The notes beneath the pieces are model-generated. The model saw only the letters and a list, made by a program, of their open reading frames with translations, did no database searches and was not told the origin of the DNA. Below, one piece after another: positions 28,519-39,280 of a stretch of 64,000 nt of DNA. The translations under genes and the position numbers were made by a program. Position 1 is the first letter of the stretch. Every line of letters begins with the position of its first letter. Origin of the DNA: Balamuthia mandrillaris (taxonomy: Eukaryota); NCBI GenBank assembly GCA_031835245.2, contig JAVKOQ020000045.1, positions 62,001 to 126,000 on the forward strand, written 5' to 3'.

Positions 28519-31500
28519 ATGGAGGCCTCTTCTTCTCCCGAGGAAGCCACCAAACAGAAGAAGAAGAAGAAGGACGCGGACGCCAAGAAGAAAGACAAGG
28601 CGGCCAAGAGCAGCAAAAGCAGCGAAAAGAGACAACGCTCATTGTCCTCCTCCTCCTCCTCCTCGACCACAAAGTCTCAACGCCATGAACGTGAGGAAGT
28701 GGAAAGTGGGAAGAGCAGCGACTCCAGGCCCACCAGCCCCTCCCTGCCTGAAAAGAAACAGAAGAAGAGCAGCCCTTTGAGCAGCCCCAAAAACACCGTC
28801 AAAGGCAGCCCTCTTCTCCTCAAGCGAACTCTCAGCAACACCAAGAAGCGGCTCTCCCTTTCTCTGCTCGACCTGAAACGATCCACCTCTGGCGACAGGT
28901 CACGGCCAGAGACGGACTCAGAGTCGGAAGAGAGCGGTGGAGGTGGAGCAGGAACAACCAGCGGGTCGACCAAAGTCAGAAGGGCTGTGCGCAGTCTAAG
29001 TTGGAGAAAGAGGAGCAGCCAGAGGGGAAGAGGCAAGAGAGAGGGAGAAACCAGCGATGATGGTGGTGGCTATACCTCTTCCGAGCCTCGCGAAGTGAGC
29101 GAAGGAGAAGAGGAAGAACGTGAAAGAGGAGGAGAAGAGGAGGAGGAAGAAGAGGAATATGAGAGAAGATCAGGTCGATTGAAATCCTCAGAGAGAAAAC
29201 TTTCGATGGACGTGACCCTGCTCTTGTTGCAGGAGCAGGAACGAAGAAGACAACTTGAAGAAGAGTTGAAAAAAGAGAGGAAAAAGAAGAAAAAGAAAAA
29301 ATCGGGCGATGAGACAACGAGTTCAACGAGAAAGCAAAGAGGAGGCTCCATGCGCGAACTCAAATCAGGGCCCGTTCGGAGCAGCAGTCACATGCACGCT
29401 TCTTCTTCTGGCGACGAAGACGACATCACTCTCTCGTCATCCCCAGAGGCGCTGAGCGCTTCTGCCTCTCCGAGATCTCCCTCGCCTCTGCGAGAACTTC
29501 GGTTGAACCGATCCTCTGCCACTTCTTCGTCGGCTTCTTTCAGCAGCGGAACAAGCCCAAGCAAAAGTGGAGGCAGCTTATCCAAGATCTTTGCAAAGAG
29601 GAAGAAAGCAGTGGAAGAAGAGAACAAGAGAAGGGAGGAGGAAGCGAATAGCAGAATGAATGGATTGATGGAAGAGTTGAACAAGCTGAAAGAGCTGGAT
29701 GTTGAAAAAGAGAGGGAGAAGGAAGAATTGAGAAAGCTGTTGGATGAAGCGAGGAATGAGCTGGAGAAGAAAGCCAAAGAGGTGGATGGGCTCAACGAGG
29801 CCATCCGTGACGGAGAAGTTACCTCTCAGAGAGACAAAGGAGAGATCGCTTCAGCTCTTACTGCTGAACTTAACACCAAAGGTCATCTCTCTTCCTTCTT
29901 GTCCCTGTCGTTATCCTCTTTCAATCCTCACTCCTTGTTTTGTAGGAGAGGAGCTTGCCAAAGCGATGTTGTTGCTAAAAGAACAAGAACAGAAAACAAA
30001 CGAACTATTAGATGCAAAGGAACGACAGATAATCGAACTCCAGAAGGAGGTCGATCGCTCTCGACAGGAAACTCTTCAACAAGAAGAAAGAACAGAAGAG
30101 GCGAAACGCCAAAACGAGTTCTTGAGAGAAGAGGTGCAAAGAGTCGAAACCCACATGTATAACTTAAAGGAGGAGTTCGACAGGGTGGCAGCAGAGAGGC
30201 AAAAGGAGAAGGAGATGGCAAGCGAGAAGGAAGAGAAGTTGACAAGATTGTTGGAGGAAACAAGGAACGAAATACAGAAGAAGGAGAAAGAGATGGGTGA
30301 GCTGAACAAAGCTCTTAGTGAAAAGGCATCTGCGTTTGCGAAAGAGAAAGAAGAGATCACTTCCATTCTTACGGCTGAGCTTAACGCGAAAGGTGAGTCA
30401 GCTTTGGCGTTCTATTGTTATCTTTTATTTTCCCTTTGTTTATTCAACTGCTATGATACTGCAGGAAACGAACTGTCTCGAACAACTTTGTTGCTCACAG
30501 AACAAGAACAGAAAATGGAAGAGCTAAGAAGCGAAAGCGATTTGTTGAAAGGAAAGTTGGAAGCAGCACAAGCGCAGATGAAGCAAGTTACGGAAGAGAG
30601 GGAAAGGGAGCAGGAGAAAGAGAAAGAGAAGGAAGAGGAGCTGAGAGGATTGTTGGAAAGCACGAAGAATGCATTGCAGAAGAAAGAGAAAGAGATGGAT
30701 GAGCTCAGCCAAGCCTTTCATGAAAAGGAAACCGCATTGCAGAGAGAAAAAGAAGAGATCAGTTCGCATCTACATCGCAAAGGTTGATCCTCATCTTTCT
30801 TATTCTTCTCCCCTTCTTTTATTGATGTTTCTTCTTAAAATACTCCAGAGGAAGAATTGTCCCGAGCGACTCTCTTGCAACAAGAACAAGAGCAGCAAAT
30901 GAAAGAACGATTAGAGGCTTCAGAGCGACAGGTGGGGAATCTTCGGGAAGAGTTCGCTAGCTCTCGTCAAGAAACGCAGCGAAATGAAGAACAGCTGGAG
31001 GAGATACAGCAAGCAAAAACGCTGCTGAAAGGAGAGTTGGAAGCAACGGAAACACAGATGAACAAGTTGAAAGAAGAGCTTAACATCAGTAGATCACACG
31101 AAGAAGAACTGGAAAGAAAGGTGGAAGAGATGAAAGAAGAATGGAAGAACAAAGAGGCAGAGATGGAGAGAACCATTCAGCAAGAAAAGGAGAACGTAAA
31201 ACGGTTGATGGAAGAGAAGGAAGAAGAGTTGGCCAACCTTAAACAGGACTACGAACAGAGGGAACGAGAAGTTAACAACAACAAACAAAAAGAAATGGAG
31301 GAGAAAGATAAGGAGATAAAAGAGCTTACTGCTAGAGCCAAAGCAGAGTTGGAACAAAAAGAAGAGGCCATTAGAGCAAAGGACGATCTCATACGGAAGA
31401 ATGAAGGAGAATACGAGCGACGTTTGTGCGAGCTGGAAAAACGAGAACAAGAAGCACTCTCCTCGAAAGCGCAACTGAGCTTGCAACTGGAGGAGCAAAA

Positions 31501-34500
31501 CGACAACGTTCGAGTGATGGAGCAACAATTGAGCAGCCTTACGCAACGGCTTGACAACGAGAAAGCGGACAACGCAGAGTTGAAAGAGAAAGTGAACCAG
31601 TACGAAAGCGCGCTGCAACTGAAGGACTCAGAGTTGAACGGGCTTCGTCAAGGACACTCGCTTCAGATTCAATCTTTGAAAGAGGCGTTACAGCAAGCCG
31701 CAGAAGCATTACAGAGCCAAAAGGAGGAGATGGAAGAGGAGGTAACGCAGCTCCGAACGAAAATGGAAGAAGAGATAACACAACGAGAGGAGCGGTTGCT
31801 GCTAAGAGAACAGGAGCTGGAAGCGACAAGCAACAAAACCGCTCGACTCGAAGCGGAACTAGAACGCATGTCGGAAGAGAAACGACGACTGGAGAATGGG
31901 CTGAGAGAAGCGGAGAACCAGATGGAAGTTCAACGAAAGAGCTGGTCGGAGGAAAGGGAGCTCCTGCTGCTGGAGCACCAACGCACGGCCCAGTCCAGAG
32001 GGGAGGAAGCCGACCAGCTCCTCGCCGCGAAGCAGGACAAGTGGCGGCGGCGGGACGCGCAGCAGCGCCAAAGGGTGGAGGAGCTGGAGCAGCAACTGAG
32101 GGAAAGCGAGGCGCAAAGCCGCAGGAAGGAAGAGGAATGGGGGGAGGCCAAGGAGAGCCTCCAACGAAAACTCATCGAAGAGAGGACGAAAGCTCAGCAG
32201 CGGCTGGAGGCGGAGAGGGGGCGGTTGGAGAGGGAGAAGGAGGAGCTTTTGCAGCGAAAAGAGGAGGAGATGTCAGAGGTGCTGGGGAGGCAACAAGCCA
32301 CGAAGAAACAGAGGGAGGAAGAGGAGGCCTCAGCCGCAGCAAAATTGGCACAGGAGGCGCAAAAGCAGGTGCAGGCTGTGAAGATGAAGAAGAAGGAAAA
32401 GGTGGAGAGGCTGAAGGAGCAAGTGGGCCAGCTGAAGCAGAAGATGGAGGAGCTGAGCGTGGAGAAGGAGCGAAAAGAAAAAGAGTGGGAGGAGGAGAGG
32501 CAAACCGCGCTGAAAGAGGAAGCCCGGTGGCAGCAACAGCTGCAACGAGCCACGGAGGAGGCCAATGAGCTGAAGACGGCGTTGATGGAGGCCACTCGCT
32601 CTGTCGAAGCAAAGGAGGAGGAGCTCGCTTCTTTGCAGGAGCAGCATCGAAAGCAAGCCGCGGAGATGCAAAGCATGATCCTGGACGTGACCTCCCAGCT
32701 GAAGGACAGAATGCATTCCACGGCTCAGGAACTCACGGTGATGAAGAGCAAGCGAGAGCAGCTGACCATGGAGCTGTCTTATGTAAAGGAGAAGTTGGAA
32801 GCTTCGGAGACGCACTCGCGGGAGCTGCAACAGCAGCTGCAGATGACCAAAGCCGACAAAAAGCAGCTGAAACGAGAGCTGGAGCTAAAGTTGGAGGAGA
32901 AGAACAGAGAGATGGAACAAATGGTCCAAAGCGAGCAGCGAAAGATGGAGGAGAACGTGGCCAAGCAACTCGATCGGTTGGGCAAAGAGCTGGAAGAGAG
33001 CAGAGAGTTTGCAGCTGACATAGAGAAGAAATGGAAAGACGTGGAGCAGCAGTACGCCTTGCTCCAAGAGGAGAGCAGGAGACAAGTAGAAGAAGCAAGA
33101 AGCAAGGAGGAAAACGTGAGCAAAGAACGAGATAGACTCAGCGAAGAGGCGAAACAACACAAAGCCTTGCTAGAGAAAATAGAGAAGCAGAGAGAAGAAA
33201 CAGAGAAACAACTCGAACAGATGAAGAATGAGTTTGAGCGCGAGAGAGACGAACGCATGAAGGAAAAACAGCTCTCCTCGAAAGAGATGGAACAGATAAT
33301 TCACCAACTAGAAGAGAAGGAACGACACTTTGTTGATGCTCGGACTAGAAGCGCGGATGAAGAGAAAACAAAGTTACTGGAAGAAATGAAACAAGTTCGG
33401 TTAGAGCTAGAGTCCAGCAAAACGAAAGCGGAAGAGCTTCAAAGAGAAGTCGAGGCAAGACAACAGCAACTGAACAAAGTACAAATAGAGAATGAAAGCA
33501 AAATGGAAAGAGCAGAACAGGAGAAGAGAAAGATGGAAGAACAGTTGGATCGACTGAAGTCTGAAATGCAAGAGAAAGAACGACAGTATAAACGATTGGA
33601 AGATGAAGCAAAAGCAAAGAACTTGAAGCTGGAAGAAACAGTTGTTAAAGAACGAGAACTGTTTGAGGCTTTGAGAGAAAAACTCAAGACTACAGAAGAA
33701 GAATTGAAGATTGTTCGTTCTAACGAAGAAGAACGAAAACGGAGAGAAGAGGAAGTAATTGCAAATTTGCAACAAGCGCTTTTCTCCACAAACGAAAAGC
33801 TACAGCACCACGTTAAAGAAACAACGAAACTTACGGAAGAACTCGAACAAATGCGAATTGATGCGAGCAAACAACAATCTCGGATCGCTATCATCGAAGA
33901 TGAGCTACGTGCTGAAAAGGAGCGCTCTAATCGCCTCATCGCTTCCATCGAAGAGGAGAAAGAAAGGGCAACGAACGAGATGAAAGCTCTTTGGCAAGCA
34001 AAAGAGAAGCAGTTCGAACAAACGATGCACGAGTTCACAACAAAGACAACACAATTGGAGAAAGAAATGTCCGCTTTACAACAAATCATTCGAAGCAACG
34101 AAGCAGAAATGGAGAAGCTCAAGCATCAAGTTCGTCAGAGAGAAGAGCAGCTGACTATCGTTCAAGGTGAGTTGATGGCTGTTATCCAACAACAAAAACA
34201 ACCACAACCACAACCACAACCACCACACAGTCCCACTACCATCCAAACACATCTTGGCTCTCGTTTGGTGCCACTTTCACCCTTATCTTCTCGTGCACGA
34301 GAGGAAAGAAAACGAGGACGGCTGATGGAAAAATCTAAAGAAGCTGAAGACAGACAGAAGGCTCATGAAAAGAAGAGAGCTGCAAGAAGAGAGGAAAGTT
34401 TACACCAGGGTTTTGATCAAGCGACGGATTCTCGAGAAGACGTAGAAGAAGAGGAAGAAGACTCCGTCGCTTCGCCCCTGTTAGTTTCCTCCATCACCAC

Positions 34501-34984
34501 TTCTACCGCTCGAAAAGAACGCAGAAAACATCGAAGGCGATGGAGAAGTTTGGGCAGTTGGAACGAAATGAAGCGACTCCTTTTCGCTGCTGAAGGTGAA
34601 GAAGCAGAAGAAGAGACCGGAGAAGTGCAACGTCCTCAAGAAGAAGCTTCCACCGTTCGTTACATGCCATTCATTCCGGCAGTACCAACTTCTATTTCGC
34701 TCATTAACGCTTCTTCTCCATCTGCTTCCTCGTCTTTAGTTCTCTTCTCTTCTTCCGATGTAACAACAACGGGAAGTCAACAGCAACAACAATTAGTACC
34801 ATCCTCACCACCACCATCTCCTTCTGCTTCATCCGCGTTGAAAGGATTGTTGTGGTGGCCCATTTCGGCAACACAACGATGCATCTTCCTCTTGTTCCGT
34901 TTGTGGACATGGCTCCCTTTGTTGTTCCTTCGCATTGTCTTCTCCTTCTTCACCCGCTCTCCTCGTGTACCTGATAGCGATTGA
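28519..34984 (+). CDS. Giant coiled-coil protein with Ser/Lys-rich N-terminus and C-terminal hydrophobic anchor (golgin-like), 4 exons
   Basis: Long E/K/Q heptad region; introns 29882-29945, 30393-30464, 30783-30848; C-terminal CIFLLFRLWTWLPLLFLRIVFSFF. Confidence 0.75.
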
Positions 34985-35594: not shown

Positions 35595-36011
35595 ATGAGC
35601 TCCTCTGCAGCAACAGCCGTCGCCGCCACCACCAACCATGCAGCTGGTGGTGGAGGAGGAAGTGCGAACAGAAGGACCACCCGACAGCATCATAGAAAGC
35701 AGCCACAACAACAGCAGTTCAACGTGCCGGCCAACAACAAGAAAGCAGCTGAGCTGAAGTCCCACCTTCAGAGCTTTGCCGGCCTCATGTCCGACGTGGA
35801 GGCCAACCGAGGCAAGCACAAAAACTTTGACTATGACTTGCTGAAGATCCCGCCCTTTCATTACCTCCACATTCTTGACAACAACACCAACGTCATCCGT
35901 GTGGTGGAGGGTCCCTGCCGTCACACTCGACTTCAACACGAAGTCGTTGTCTATGGGCCTGAGCCTATGTATGTGTTCTTCTCTTTCTCTCTTTTGCTCT
36001 TTCTCTCGCTT

Positions 36012-36051
<40 letters not shown>

Positions 36052-37649
36052 CTTGACAAATGCTTTTCCCAAGGATCGTGATACCACCACAACATTATTG
36101 CGTTATCAACAATCCAGTCCTTAGAGATGGTGTTTAATGTTCTCCTCTTTATCATGTTAGGTCTTTGTTTTTCGTTATTGACTTGTTGTGATGTAACTCA
36201 TTTCAGAGAGCGGGAACGTGGTGCTGAACAAACATCAACAAGTAAAGCTGAGGCATGGCGAGCAGGAAGTTCGATTGGAGCAGGAGCCCTTCCCGCTTTA
36301 TCCTGGAGAGGAGATGGAAGGCGAAGTTATGCCCTTACTCGTTGTTCCTCAGAATACTGCTCTTCGTCTTTGTGCCAGTATGTTTACTCTTCTCTCGCCT
36401 TTGTTTCTGTCTTTTCATTCTTCTTTTGTGATGGTTTCCTAACGTATGGCTCTTTACAAAAAAGAGAGAGACTTTCTTCAAAGAGTTTGCTCATCTCCCA
36501 AAGACGCGAAGAAGAACAAGGAGAAACAGCATGAAGAAGAAGAACAATTCATCCAACGAAAAGCTGGTGACGAATGGCTCTTCAAAGGACCAGGAACGTA
36601 CGTCCCTCAGGTGGAAGCCGAAGTGATAGAAATGGTCGAAGCTGAGGTTTTGAAGCCAGACGAAGCTCTTAAACTAAGAGCGAGACGGGACTGCACCGAC
36701 TATAAAGGACAACCGAGAAAAGCGGGAGAAGAATGGCTTGTGAGAGAGCCTGGAGCTTATCTTCCTTCTGCTGAAGAGGACGTGTTGGAAGTGGTGGAAG
36801 GCTTCATTCTCACTGAAGGCAAAGCTCTGCACCTTCGCGCAAAGACTTCCTTTGTGGATAAGTTTGTTTTTCTCTGTTTTCTCATTTCTCGCTTCTTTTA
36901 TTCTAACTGTTGGGACTTTAGTTTTGGGATTCAACGTAAAGCAGGAGAGGAATGGTTGATAACTCACAAAGATGGAGAAGTGCACATTCCGCATGTACAT
37001 GAGGAGGTCGTACAAATGGAGAACATCATCTCTCTGAGCAAGAGAAATTATTGGTATCTTCTCTTCTCCATCTCTCCCTATCTCTCTCACTCTCTCCGTT
37101 TGACTGACGTTCAGCGATTTGCTTTTTATTTGAAGCGTTATTCAGAATCCTGTAGATGAAAATGGAGTGCCACAGCTCGGCGAACGAAAGCTAGTTGTTG
37201 GCCCTACTAACTTCTTCTTGCTACCAGGAGAATCTCTGGAAGGTCAAGCCATTCAAGAAAGTACGTATTCTTCCGTCTTTCTACGTCTGTCCTCTCGCCA
37301 ATCTTACATGAAACTTTCAAAACAAATAGTCAAAGTATTAAACGCAGAACAAGCGCTGATGGTAGAAGCTCGCGAAAACTTTATGGAAGAAATAACAAAC
37401 GCTAACAACAAAACGGTTGGACAAAAGAGAAGGAGAGCAGGAGATAGATGGCTAGTATGTGGTCCTCGAGACTACATCCCTCCTCTGGAAGTGAAGATCA
37501 TCCCTCCTGTTCGTAATTCTGTTGTTAGCATTGAAGCTCTCGACTTGCACTTCTTTTACACGTTGCCACTTGTGCTTTACGCCTTTTTAGCCCTCTTCCT
37601 TACTTACTTCTTTTTGGTTTACCTTCCTCGTCTTCTCTCCTCTGAATAA
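35595..37649 (+). CDS. Major vault protein paralogue: repeats R1-R7 only, followed by a hydrophobic C-terminal tail (7 exons)
   Basis: R1 [14 protein letters not shown]2 [13 protein letters not shown]...PFPLYPGE; R3 [14 protein letters not shown]4 [15 protein letters not shown]5 [11 protein letters not shown]6 NYCVIQNPV...FFLLPGE; R7 [16 protein letters not shown]. The stop overlaps AATAAA. Confidence 0.88.
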
Positions 37650-37695
37650 AAGCTTTTTTTGTAGAGAACTGTCCTTTTATTCGTCTTACAAGCAG

Positions 37696-38436
37696 TTACT
37701 GCTGAGTGGAAGGAGTCTCTTCAGGAGTAAGACATTTGCAGAGAAGAAACTTGATGTTTGTTTCGTCCAGCTTTTCAGTGGGTTTCTTGACAACAACGGG
37801 GCAATGACGAACGACCATCACTTCTTGCCCGTTGCGATCCTTGCCAACATGGTGATAAGATCCTTTCTTCACATAGGCTCCTTCATGTGCAAAAAAAACA
37901 AAAAGAGTGAGAGGAGAGGGAGAGAGGGAGAGAGGGAGAGAGGGAGAGAGGGAGAGAGGAGGGAGAGGAGAGAAGAGAGTGGGAGGGAGAGAGAGTGGAG
38001 AGAGAGAGAGGGAGAGAGGGAGAGAGGGAGAGAGAGGGAGAGAGAGAGGGAGAGAGCTAGGGAAGACGAACCCCATTTATACCAATCAGGACAGTCATTC
38101 CAGTCGATTTGCTTTTCCTTCTCAAGCTTTTCCAGCATCTGGGTGGTGTTCAAGCCTTGTAGCTCTTTGTGAGAGAAGTAATGCTGGGCCAGTCCTGCTA
38201 TGCTGTTCCTCTTAAAGTCATAACTCGCCCTCCAATATACGTTATTCTGATAGGATGATTATGGTAAGTTTACTGAACAACAGAGAGAAGAGACGAGTCA
38301 ATGTACATAAGCCTCAGCGTTGTTAGGGACGTTGTGCACTCGAGAGTCAAAGTGAGGTCTTGAATTCTGAACGTGGTTCAGCAGCTTTAAATAAAAAAAA
38401 CAATCATTTAAGAGATTATTGACGTCATAAACAAGA

Positions 38437-38478
<42 letters not shown>

Positions 38479-39280
38479 AAAAAAGAAAAAGTGAGTTACA
38501 TCAGCTTCGGTAACAGGATCATAAGATAACGAACGGAGATGATAAGCAAAGCAAGAACTAGCGAAGGCTGCTGTCAGCGAAACAATCTGTTTATATTCCA
38601 AATCAGCAACGTATTTTGATACGAAGAAGGAAAAGAAGAAAGCAGAAAAGAAGAAAGAAGCTGAGAGAATAAAAAGAAAAAAAGACCTTTTGAATCTTTC
38701 CGCTGTGGAGAAGAAAGTTAAAAGGTCTTTCTTTTCGTTGCTCGAGCTTCCTCGGGTCCTGGTCGTCTCCTTCTATCTCCTCTCCTTCTTTGGGGTTGAC
38801 TGCCGTGAAGACCATTGTTATCTCATCGCTGCAAGTGTAGACCACTCTTGGGTTAAACGTGGTCAATAGCTCTTTCGCTGTTTCTATCATCGCAATATGA
38901 ACTTTTGCAAAACAAAAAGACGATAAGAGCAAGAAACAAGAGAAAAGCACAGCGAGGAAGTGAGCAAGTACTTCTTTCGTCATAGGGACGTTTGAAGGCT
39001 TTGGTAAACTTGGAAAACTTATGGCCGTCCAACCGGATAACATAGGGCGTGGAGGGGTCTATTCTTCCAGTGCTAGAAACCATCTTCTCATGCTCTTTCA
39101 TGCGGTCGCCCAAATTTTTGATCTTGCCGCCTTCGGCACTCTTTGCGGGAGCGTGCACAAAAAACATATATGTCAGGAACAAATTTTTTCAACGCATGGC
39201 CAAAAGTGCAAAGCTTCGGGAAAACGACATACCTCCACCTCCCCCACGCTTTCGCTTCTCGCCGGGCGCTGCTCCTCCAT
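37696..39280 (-). CDS. Thg1-like protein (TLP), 3'-5' RNA polymerase/tRNA 5'-repair family, multi-exon
   Basis: LGDRMK, VIRLDGHKFSKFT, YTCSDEIT, HFDSR, WRASYDFKRNSIAGLAQHYFSHKELQG, PDWYKWG. Confidence 0.88.

What the first reader, a model, noticed from the sequence alone, without database searches (positions are those of the whole stretch)
35595..37649. Vault-protein paralogue truncated precisely after repeat R7 and ending in a putative membrane anchor
Seen: seven exons splice in frame into a ~65-aa low-complexity leader plus MVP repeats R1-R7. The protein then ends with ...[34 protein letters not shown], and the stop overlaps AATAAA. The convergent TLP gene ends only ~47 bp later, leaving no room for the rest of MVP. 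Known: canonical MVP continues with R8-R9, an SPFH-like shoulder and the long cap helix that drives vault assembly; R1 forms the half-vault interface and R3-R4 bind vPARP in animals. Inference: this cannot build a normal vault. It may be a tail-anchored MVP-repeat protein that docks vaults or vault cargo on a membrane, or forms membrane-bound rings. I know of no described example.
Basis: partly seen in the sequence, partly recalled or inferred. Interest (0 to 1): 0.88.

Follow-up and report, generated by a model that had tools for sequence, protein, structure and literature searches.

The report
Membrane-anchored short vault protein of amoebae
Amoebae carry a second, conserved vault-protein gene that keeps the barrel-wall repeats but replaces the cap with a predicted membrane anchor, and it likely forms the missing base of the vault particles recently seen standing on the endoplasmic reticulum, which would give a testable handle on what vaults do.

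Summary
The gene is real. All six introns are spliced in RNA data and the last exon is not spliced further. The 524-aa product (NCBI: Balamuthia mandrillaris) is MVP repeats R1-R7, a short hairpin and a C-terminal hydrophobic helix. It is no local truncation: 78 non-redundant relatives share the architecture; all 15 short forms that carry a species name are Amoebozoa, including Dictyostelium DDB_G0282033/Q54T29. 21 of 30 with a tail of 10 or more residues end in EL/DL, an ER-retrieval-like signal. A 2026 cryo-ET study (PMC13100048) saw Dictyostelium vaults upright on ER and nuclear envelope, two-thirds tall, waist intact, nothing below the bilayer, anchor unknown. A ring of this protein joined waist-to-waist to a normal half-vault would fit. 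Q54T29 is enriched in that study's MVPA proximity data, but only as much as Sec61 or STT3; the height fit uses rounded and recalled numbers; no complex could be folded. Verdict: a membrane-anchored MVP subfamily not found described in the library searched; about even odds that it is the ER vault base.

The parts
35595..35968 (+). Exon 1: about 80-aa leader (low-complexity, then a low-confidence predicted helix 48-73) and repeat R1 (82-124) with the waist residues
   Evidence: joint 35968>36074 in X14 and X5
36074..36129 (+). Exon 2: start of R2
36207..36377 (+). Exon 3: rest of R2, start of R3 (Pfam Vault_2 E 1e-15)
36465..36861 (+). Exon 4: R3 with a charged insertion, R4, start of R5 (Pfam Vault E 4.6e-35)
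36922..37053 (+). Exon 5: R5 to start of R6
37136..37260 (+). Exon 6: R6 (Pfam Vault_2 E 8.9e-6)
37330..37649 (+). Exon 7: R7 (to about residue 477), hairpin (to about 493), predicted membrane helix (496-518), 6-7 residue tail, stop
   Evidence: unspliced in X5 and X17
37560..37628 (+). Codons for the predicted transmembrane helix, about residues 496-518
   Evidence: hydropathy 2.38; AF2 helix 496-523 at pLDDT above 90 to residue 520; conserved in 78 relatives
37645..37650 (+). AATAAA overlapping the stop codon; use as a poly(A) signal not tested
37696..39128 (-). Convergent Thg1-like (TLP) gene, approximate extent; its stop is 46 bases from the MVP-like stop, so no R8-cap exons fit

Best explanation
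This expressed gene encodes a vault-wall protein (MVP repeats R1-R7) ending in a predicted membrane anchor, and it likely assembles into a ring on the cytosolic face of the ER and nuclear envelope onto which a normal half-vault would dock waist-to-waist. Shown: gene, splicing, architecture, conservation across Amoebozoa. Predicted: no signal peptide, so the helix inserts as a tail anchor with the repeats in the cytosol and the short tail in the lumen, where many relatives carry xxEL. Inferred: the rods stand R7-down, R1-up, pack side by side as in the vault wall (about 39 copies, templated by the half-vault), and bind full-length MVP R1 across the waist. The result would be a particle about two-thirds of a vault tall, closed below by the membrane instead of a second cap, enclosing a membrane patch and at times a ribosome on a translocon. 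Since half-vaults exchange in cells, the ring would act as a dock between ER and free vaults.
For: Architecture and expression (model pLDDT 87, rmsd 2.2-2.9 A over about 401 columns on assembled-vault MVP chains). Family of 78 non-redundant members; no R8-R9/shoulder Pfam in 43 of 44 scanned (one weak Vault_3 hit); one clade not rejected (p-AU 0.556). EL/DL end in 21 of 30 long tails, 0 of 48 short tails, 2 of 212 full-length MVPs. No signal-like stretch in 28 of 28 near-full-length members (best 12-residue hydropathy 1.53 or less). Waist residues kept in 33 members (18-21% gaps at the first positions): I7 site L/V/I 75%, R9 site K/R 76%, N22 site 79%, N40 site H 61%, I36 site T 61%; D39A barely affects vaults while I7K does (PMC8827651). 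The isolated R1-R7 fragment packs as a vault-like wall (PMC2752026). Dictyostelium has the gene and has vaults on ER/NE about 50 of 75 nm tall, waist present, no cage below the bilayer, anchor unknown, checked for truncation only with an MVPA blot (PMC13100048). Q54T29 is detected and enriched with MVPA-TurboID (log2 1.09, q 4.7e-7).
Against: The TurboID enrichment equals that of ordinary ER proteins (Sec61a 0.97, STT3 1.10, SptA 1.17) and is near that of a mitochondrial enzyme (0.80), against 7.49 for MVPB, so it is not specific. The authors read their map as keeping MVP and SPFH domains in the lower half and losing only the helix, and take labelled luminal proteins as a hint that MVP's C-terminus reaches the lumen. 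The height fit flips if the 67-nm crystal length is paired with 50 nm (16.5 nm left, about R1-R9); the map is 14 particles at 6 nm. Less than a third of lateral contacts lie below the cap helix (PMC3595041), so a cap-less ring may not hold. D39 and R42 sites are less conserved (D/E 60%, K/R 51% of 33, against 95% and 85% of 120 full-length) and this protein has Q114 and V117. Neither this protein nor Q54T29 ends in xxEL.
Confidence: 0.5

Rival explanations
1. The protein is a tail-anchored scaffold that works without full-length MVP: as rods or rings on one membrane that bind cytosolic partners through the repeats, or as two rings joined at R1 that hold two membranes about 25 nm apart. The ER-bound vaults are then intact MvpA/B cages with a rearranged cap, as their discoverers propose.
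For: Long independent history apart from the main full-length clade; weaker D39/R42 conservation; non-specific TurboID signal; authors' fit; tails vary (xxEL, none, or no helix at all), which suggests more than one location.
Against: All seven repeats are kept at 39-54% identity, with the vault-like curvature and most waist residues; the break point is fixed across the family and matches the height of the membrane-bound particles under the in-situ numbers.
Confidence: 0.27
2. A few copies join a vault wall sideways among full-length subunits, or bind it from outside, and tether an otherwise normal vault to the membrane without forming a ring of their own.
For: Vaults are hetero-oligomers in Dictyostelium and trypanosomes; lateral surfaces lie in R1-R6, all retained; spares the need for a cap-less ring.
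Against: The neighbouring full-length subunits would still have to put R8-cap through or along a bilayer that is continuous with no density below; a referee called such threading costly if not impossible. External tethering would not give one fixed upright height.
Confidence: 0.2
3. The short form is a pseudogene, mis-assembly or retained pyrimidine-rich intron.
For: The tail codons are pyrimidine-rich like the introns; raw reads did not reach the last 20 codons.
Against: Spliced contig running through the stop with 0 differences, pN/pS about 0.09, the same tail in 78 relatives, two of them seen with their stop on environmental contigs (L001, L073).
Confidence: 0.01

Closest known systems
Major vault protein (rat, mouse, human MVP; Dictyostelium MvpA and MvpB)
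   Same: Repeats R1-R7 at 44-46% identity in the structural alignment, same curvature, most waist residues.
   Different: No intact R8-R9, shoulder or cap helix; ends in a hairpin and a predicted transmembrane helix; cannot close a cage by itself.
ER/nuclear-envelope-bound vaults of Dictyostelium (PMC13100048)
   Same: Upright, waist present, about two-thirds tall, ring-shaped contact, continuous bilayer below: the shape a half-vault plus a ring of this protein would have.
   Different: The authors propose an intact MvpA/B cage with a rearranged cap and name no anchor; Q54T29 appears only as a row in their source data.
SPFH cages (flotillin, erlin, stomatin, prohibitin, HflK/C)
   Same: Works like them if the model holds: a ring that fences a membrane patch under a dome; MVP repeats are described as homologous to SPFH1 domains (PMC12915596).
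   Different: No SPFH shoulder or coiled coil in this chain; the anchor is C-terminal, not N-terminal; the dome would come from a second gene product.
Tail-anchored ER proteins with a luminal retrieval signal (yeast Sec20p and Sed4p, recalled)
   Same: Cytosolic domain, one C-terminal helix, xxEL end in many family members.
   Different: Unrelated in sequence; this protein itself ends in SSE.
Short MVP forms of Heterolobosea and Jacobida (PMC12547018, PMC3595041)
   Same: MVP relatives shorter than 850 aa.
   Different: No membrane anchor is mentioned in the passages read; their domain content was not seen (Table S3 not reached), so kinship is open.

Membership tests
Vault-forming MVP | MVP repeat fold and sequence | tested here: met
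   Pfam Vault E 1.3e-63, Vault_2 E 1e-38; Foldseek E 1e-41
Vault-forming MVP | Nine repeats R1-R9 | tested here: not met
   Alignment ends at MVP residue 375; no Vault_3/Vault_4
Vault-forming MVP | SPFH shoulder and long cap helix | tested here: not met
   No PF11978; no R8-cap match in the window
Vault-forming MVP | R1 waist residues (6/7/36 hydrophobic cluster; R9, N22, D39, N40) | tested here: inconclusive
   L82, K84, N97, T111, H115 match the full-length pattern, Q114 replaces D39; family percentages
Vault-forming MVP | Assembly into 39-mer rings | not testable with these tools
Tail-anchored membrane proteins | Single hydrophobic helix within about 30 residues of the C-terminus | tested here: met
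   (prediction only)
Tail-anchored membrane proteins | No N-terminal signal peptide | tested here: met
   Hydropathy scan of first 45 residues in 28 of 28 near-full-length members; no dedicated predictor run
Tail-anchored membrane proteins | Post-translational insertion, cytosolic N-terminus | not testable with these tools
   Needs protease protection and localisation
KDEL-receptor clients | C-terminal xxEL-type motif | tested here: not met
   This protein ends SSE; 21 of 30 long-tailed relatives end EL/DL, one in HDEL
SPFH membrane cages | SPFH/Band 7 domain followed by coiled coil | tested here: not met

The most novel reading that the evidence does not exclude
Amoebae build a hybrid organelle: a ring of about 39 tail-anchored short MVPs on the ER, capped by an ordinary half-vault, that encloses a membrane patch and a translocon-bound ribosome. 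It is the loading dock of the vault cycle, it explains the unresolved two-thirds particles of 2026, and it makes those particles specific to lineages that keep this gene.
Probability: 0.45. Interest if true: 0.95.

Novelty: new variant of a known kind. Interest (0 to 1): 0.88.

Why it matters
The function of vaults has been open since 1986. The first in-situ view of membrane-bound vaults left the anchor and the missing third unexplained. This gene offers one molecule that accounts for both and that can be deleted in Dictyostelium, a laboratory amoeba, to remove only the membrane-bound pool. It would also tie vaults to the SPFH membrane cages in working principle, and warn that the membrane-bound form may not carry over to animals, where no such paralogue turned up among the named hits.

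Tried and rejected
Whole-genome check for a full-length MVP: no genome held. Complex prediction of two copies of residues 76-524: not available, no verdict. VIA-align second look: machine busy. First fold with 10 sequences was poor (pLDDT 55) and was replaced by a 110-sequence fold. Last-exon search of longer proteins found only the protein itself among 135 candidates. The 44-sequence profile search mostly returned full-length MVPs. Profile-profile comparison of the hairpin with R8 was not significant (probability 1.3%), so descent from R8 rests on spacing only. The Atlas gave only generic vault clusters. Earlier findings: none. No indexed holder was on record as RNA; X15 gave one 156-base piece; X3 and X11 did not cover the last exon. 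A source for per-repeat height was not found. P0372 and L022 were flagged as membrane-tailed by the scripts but are broken full-length MVPs and were dropped; five or six near-duplicates were dropped before counts, and four members missed by the pattern were added by hand. One FastTree run left short and full forms partly mixed among long branches.

Full report
Observation. The seven-exon model gives an open 524-aa frame identical to an NCBI protein annotated from Balamuthia mandrillaris. All six introns are joints in contigs X14 and X5 and five of six in raw RNA reads. X5 is labelled 'DNA?' but lacks all six introns, so it is a transcript contig; it runs through the stop with no joint and 0 differences. 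It continues into the convergent gene, so it does not define the 3' end. Raw reads cross 37509 unspliced and stop near 37583 at low depth. Of 34 coding differences that the two lays listed (each left 12 rows unshown), 26 are synonymous against 22% expected (pN/pS about 0.09). Residues 82-477 match MVP 7-375, which is R1-R7 (fragment limits from PMC2752026). No R8-cap sequence is in the window and a Thg1-like gene stops 46 bases downstream.

Anatomy. With 110 aligned sequences AlphaFold2 gives pLDDT 87: seven repeats, strands 473-493 forming a hairpin, and a helix 496-523. The model lies on assembled-vault MVP chains with rmsd 2.2-2.9 A over about 401 columns. In ungapped register from the last GP of R7, 77 family members keep the spacing of the start of R8 (A, G, hydrophobic, Y) but are more hydrophobic and end in a conserved F before the helix; profile comparison with R8 was not significant.

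Family. The best hits to the whole protein are short proteins, ahead of all full-length MVPs. A search of 1.84 billion representatives with the last exon gave 172 hits, 150 listed. Of 403 stored proteins a script classed 80 as membrane-tailed; after removing one false positive and near-duplicates and adding four missed members, 78 remain. Of 27 short forms looked up, 15 carry a species name and all are Amoebozoa by my knowledge of the taxonomy: Balamuthia, Acanthamoeba, Luapelamoeba, Gocevia, Paramoeba; Flabellula, Rhizamoeba, Arcella, Pyxidicula, Nolandella; Dictyostelium, Heterostelium, Cavostelium, Mastigella, Ceratiomyxa. Twelve are unnamed, so the range may be wider. On R1-R7 alone, 22 short forms against 21 full-length need two label changes in the free tree, and holding the short forms together scores 2.2 log units better (p-AU 0.556): one origin is allowed, not shown. 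A second group ends after the hairpin in aromatic and basic residues with no helix.

Topology. One hydrophobic helix at the C-terminus and no signal-like N-terminus in 28 of 28 near-full-length members predict a tail anchor. EL/DL ends 21 of 30 tails of 10 or more residues, 0 of 48 shorter tails and 2 of 212 full-length MVPs. From recalled knowledge of KDEL-receptor ligands this points to a luminal C-terminus and ER residence. This protein and the Dictyostelium one lack the motif, so their ER location is inferred from the family.

The link to membrane-bound vaults. PMC13100048 (read: abstract, Introduction, Results, Discussion and part of Methods; searches of supplementary files 1, 3 and 4, review file part 6 of 8, source data parts 1 and 9 of 68; file 2 unreadable) found 14 of 999 Dictyostelium vaults upright on ER or nuclear envelope, about 50 nm of a 75-nm particle, with the waist, a ring-shaped contact, a continuous bilayer, no cage density below, and 3 of 4 enclosed ribosomes posed as on a translocon. 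No anchor was known, and truncation was excluded with an MVPA blot. Dictyostelium encodes the short form (Q54T29, 420 aa, 39% identical to this protein over 441 columns). With the in-situ numbers the lower part is 50 - 37.5 = 12.5 nm. With recalled crystal figures (half 33.5 nm, cap about 15.5, shoulder about 2.5) a repeat rises about 1.7 nm, so R1-R7 is about 12 nm (68% of a vault) and R1-R9 plus shoulder about 18 nm (77%). [quoted passage not shown] Q54T29 is enriched with MVPA-TurboID (log2 1.09, q 4.7e-7, 6 peptides), which shows the protein is made, but Sec61a, STT3 and SptA are enriched as much.

Can it meet a half-vault? The human waist uses F6, I7, I36 and R9, N22, D39, N40 (PMC12280208, passages). 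In 33 members the I7, R9, N22, I36 and N40 sites mostly follow the full-length pattern; D39 is D/E in 60% and is Q here. D39A vaults are 98% whole, I7K raises half-vaults to 12%, half-vault exchange occurs in cells, and R7-R8 is a hinge (PMC8827651, passages). Isolated R1-R7 packs as a wall with vault-like contacts (PMC2752026, parts 1-2 of 5 and passages), but the cap helix supplies most lateral contacts (PMC3595041, passages), so the ring probably needs the membrane and the upper half as template. This was not modelled.

Novelty. Searches of the held library for MVP with transmembrane, tail-anchored, paralog, Amoebozoa, Acanthamoeba and Dictyostelium terms showed no description of a membrane-tailed MVP; Q54T29 and DDB_G0282033 occur in no main text. 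Subscription papers are mostly not held. PMC12547018 (section 13 and passages) notes short MVP forms in Heterolobosea and Jacobida; its Table S3 was not reached and may bear on range. PMC3762200 (passages and section 11) treats only alpha and beta forms in amoebae. PMC7916137, PMC6680493, PMC11855390 and PMC12915596 were seen as passages only.

Verdict. A real, conserved MVP subfamily with a new architecture; not a member of the cage-forming MVPs by three failed features, but built from their wall. Tail anchor about 0.9, ER about 0.75, base of the ER-bound vault about 0.5. Interest 0.88.

Noticed in passing
Proteins P0131, P0159, P0164, P0173, P0191, P0221, P0253, P0276 and others: A sister group of R1-R7 proteins ends right after the hairpin in aromatic then basic residues with no transmembrane helix; possibly peripheral membrane binders. 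One is from Ceratiomyxa.
   Followed up: partly
window 37054-37135 (intron 5): Two raw reads of X17 use an upstream acceptor near 37114, which by the window sequence would bring in an in-frame stop.
   Followed up: no
window 36130-36206 (intron 2): Four reads of X18 lie unspliced across intron 2; retained intron, pre-mRNA or DNA.
   Followed up: no
window 35736-35813 (residues 48-73): Low-confidence predicted helix before R1 with a short 'L.SF' look-alike in the Acanthamoeba-group relatives; it would lie inside the waist.
   Followed up: no
window 37650-37881: Contig X5 joins the spliced MVP-like transcript to the spliced convergent Thg1-like transcript, which suggests overlapping 3' ends.
   Followed up: partly
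window 30839-34984 (+): Upstream 1381-codon open frame of a long coiled-coil protein that ends in a hydrophobic stretch with a short tail, another possible tail-anchored (golgin-like) protein.
   Followed up: no
ESM Atlas clusters: Several clusters with vault repeats are listed with viral (Uroviricota) and myxobacterial members, including a 463-aa one without a common Pfam family; leads only.
   Followed up: no
P0007 (Clastostelium): Full-length MVP assembly with one repeat duplicated; may be an assembly isoform.
   Followed up: no
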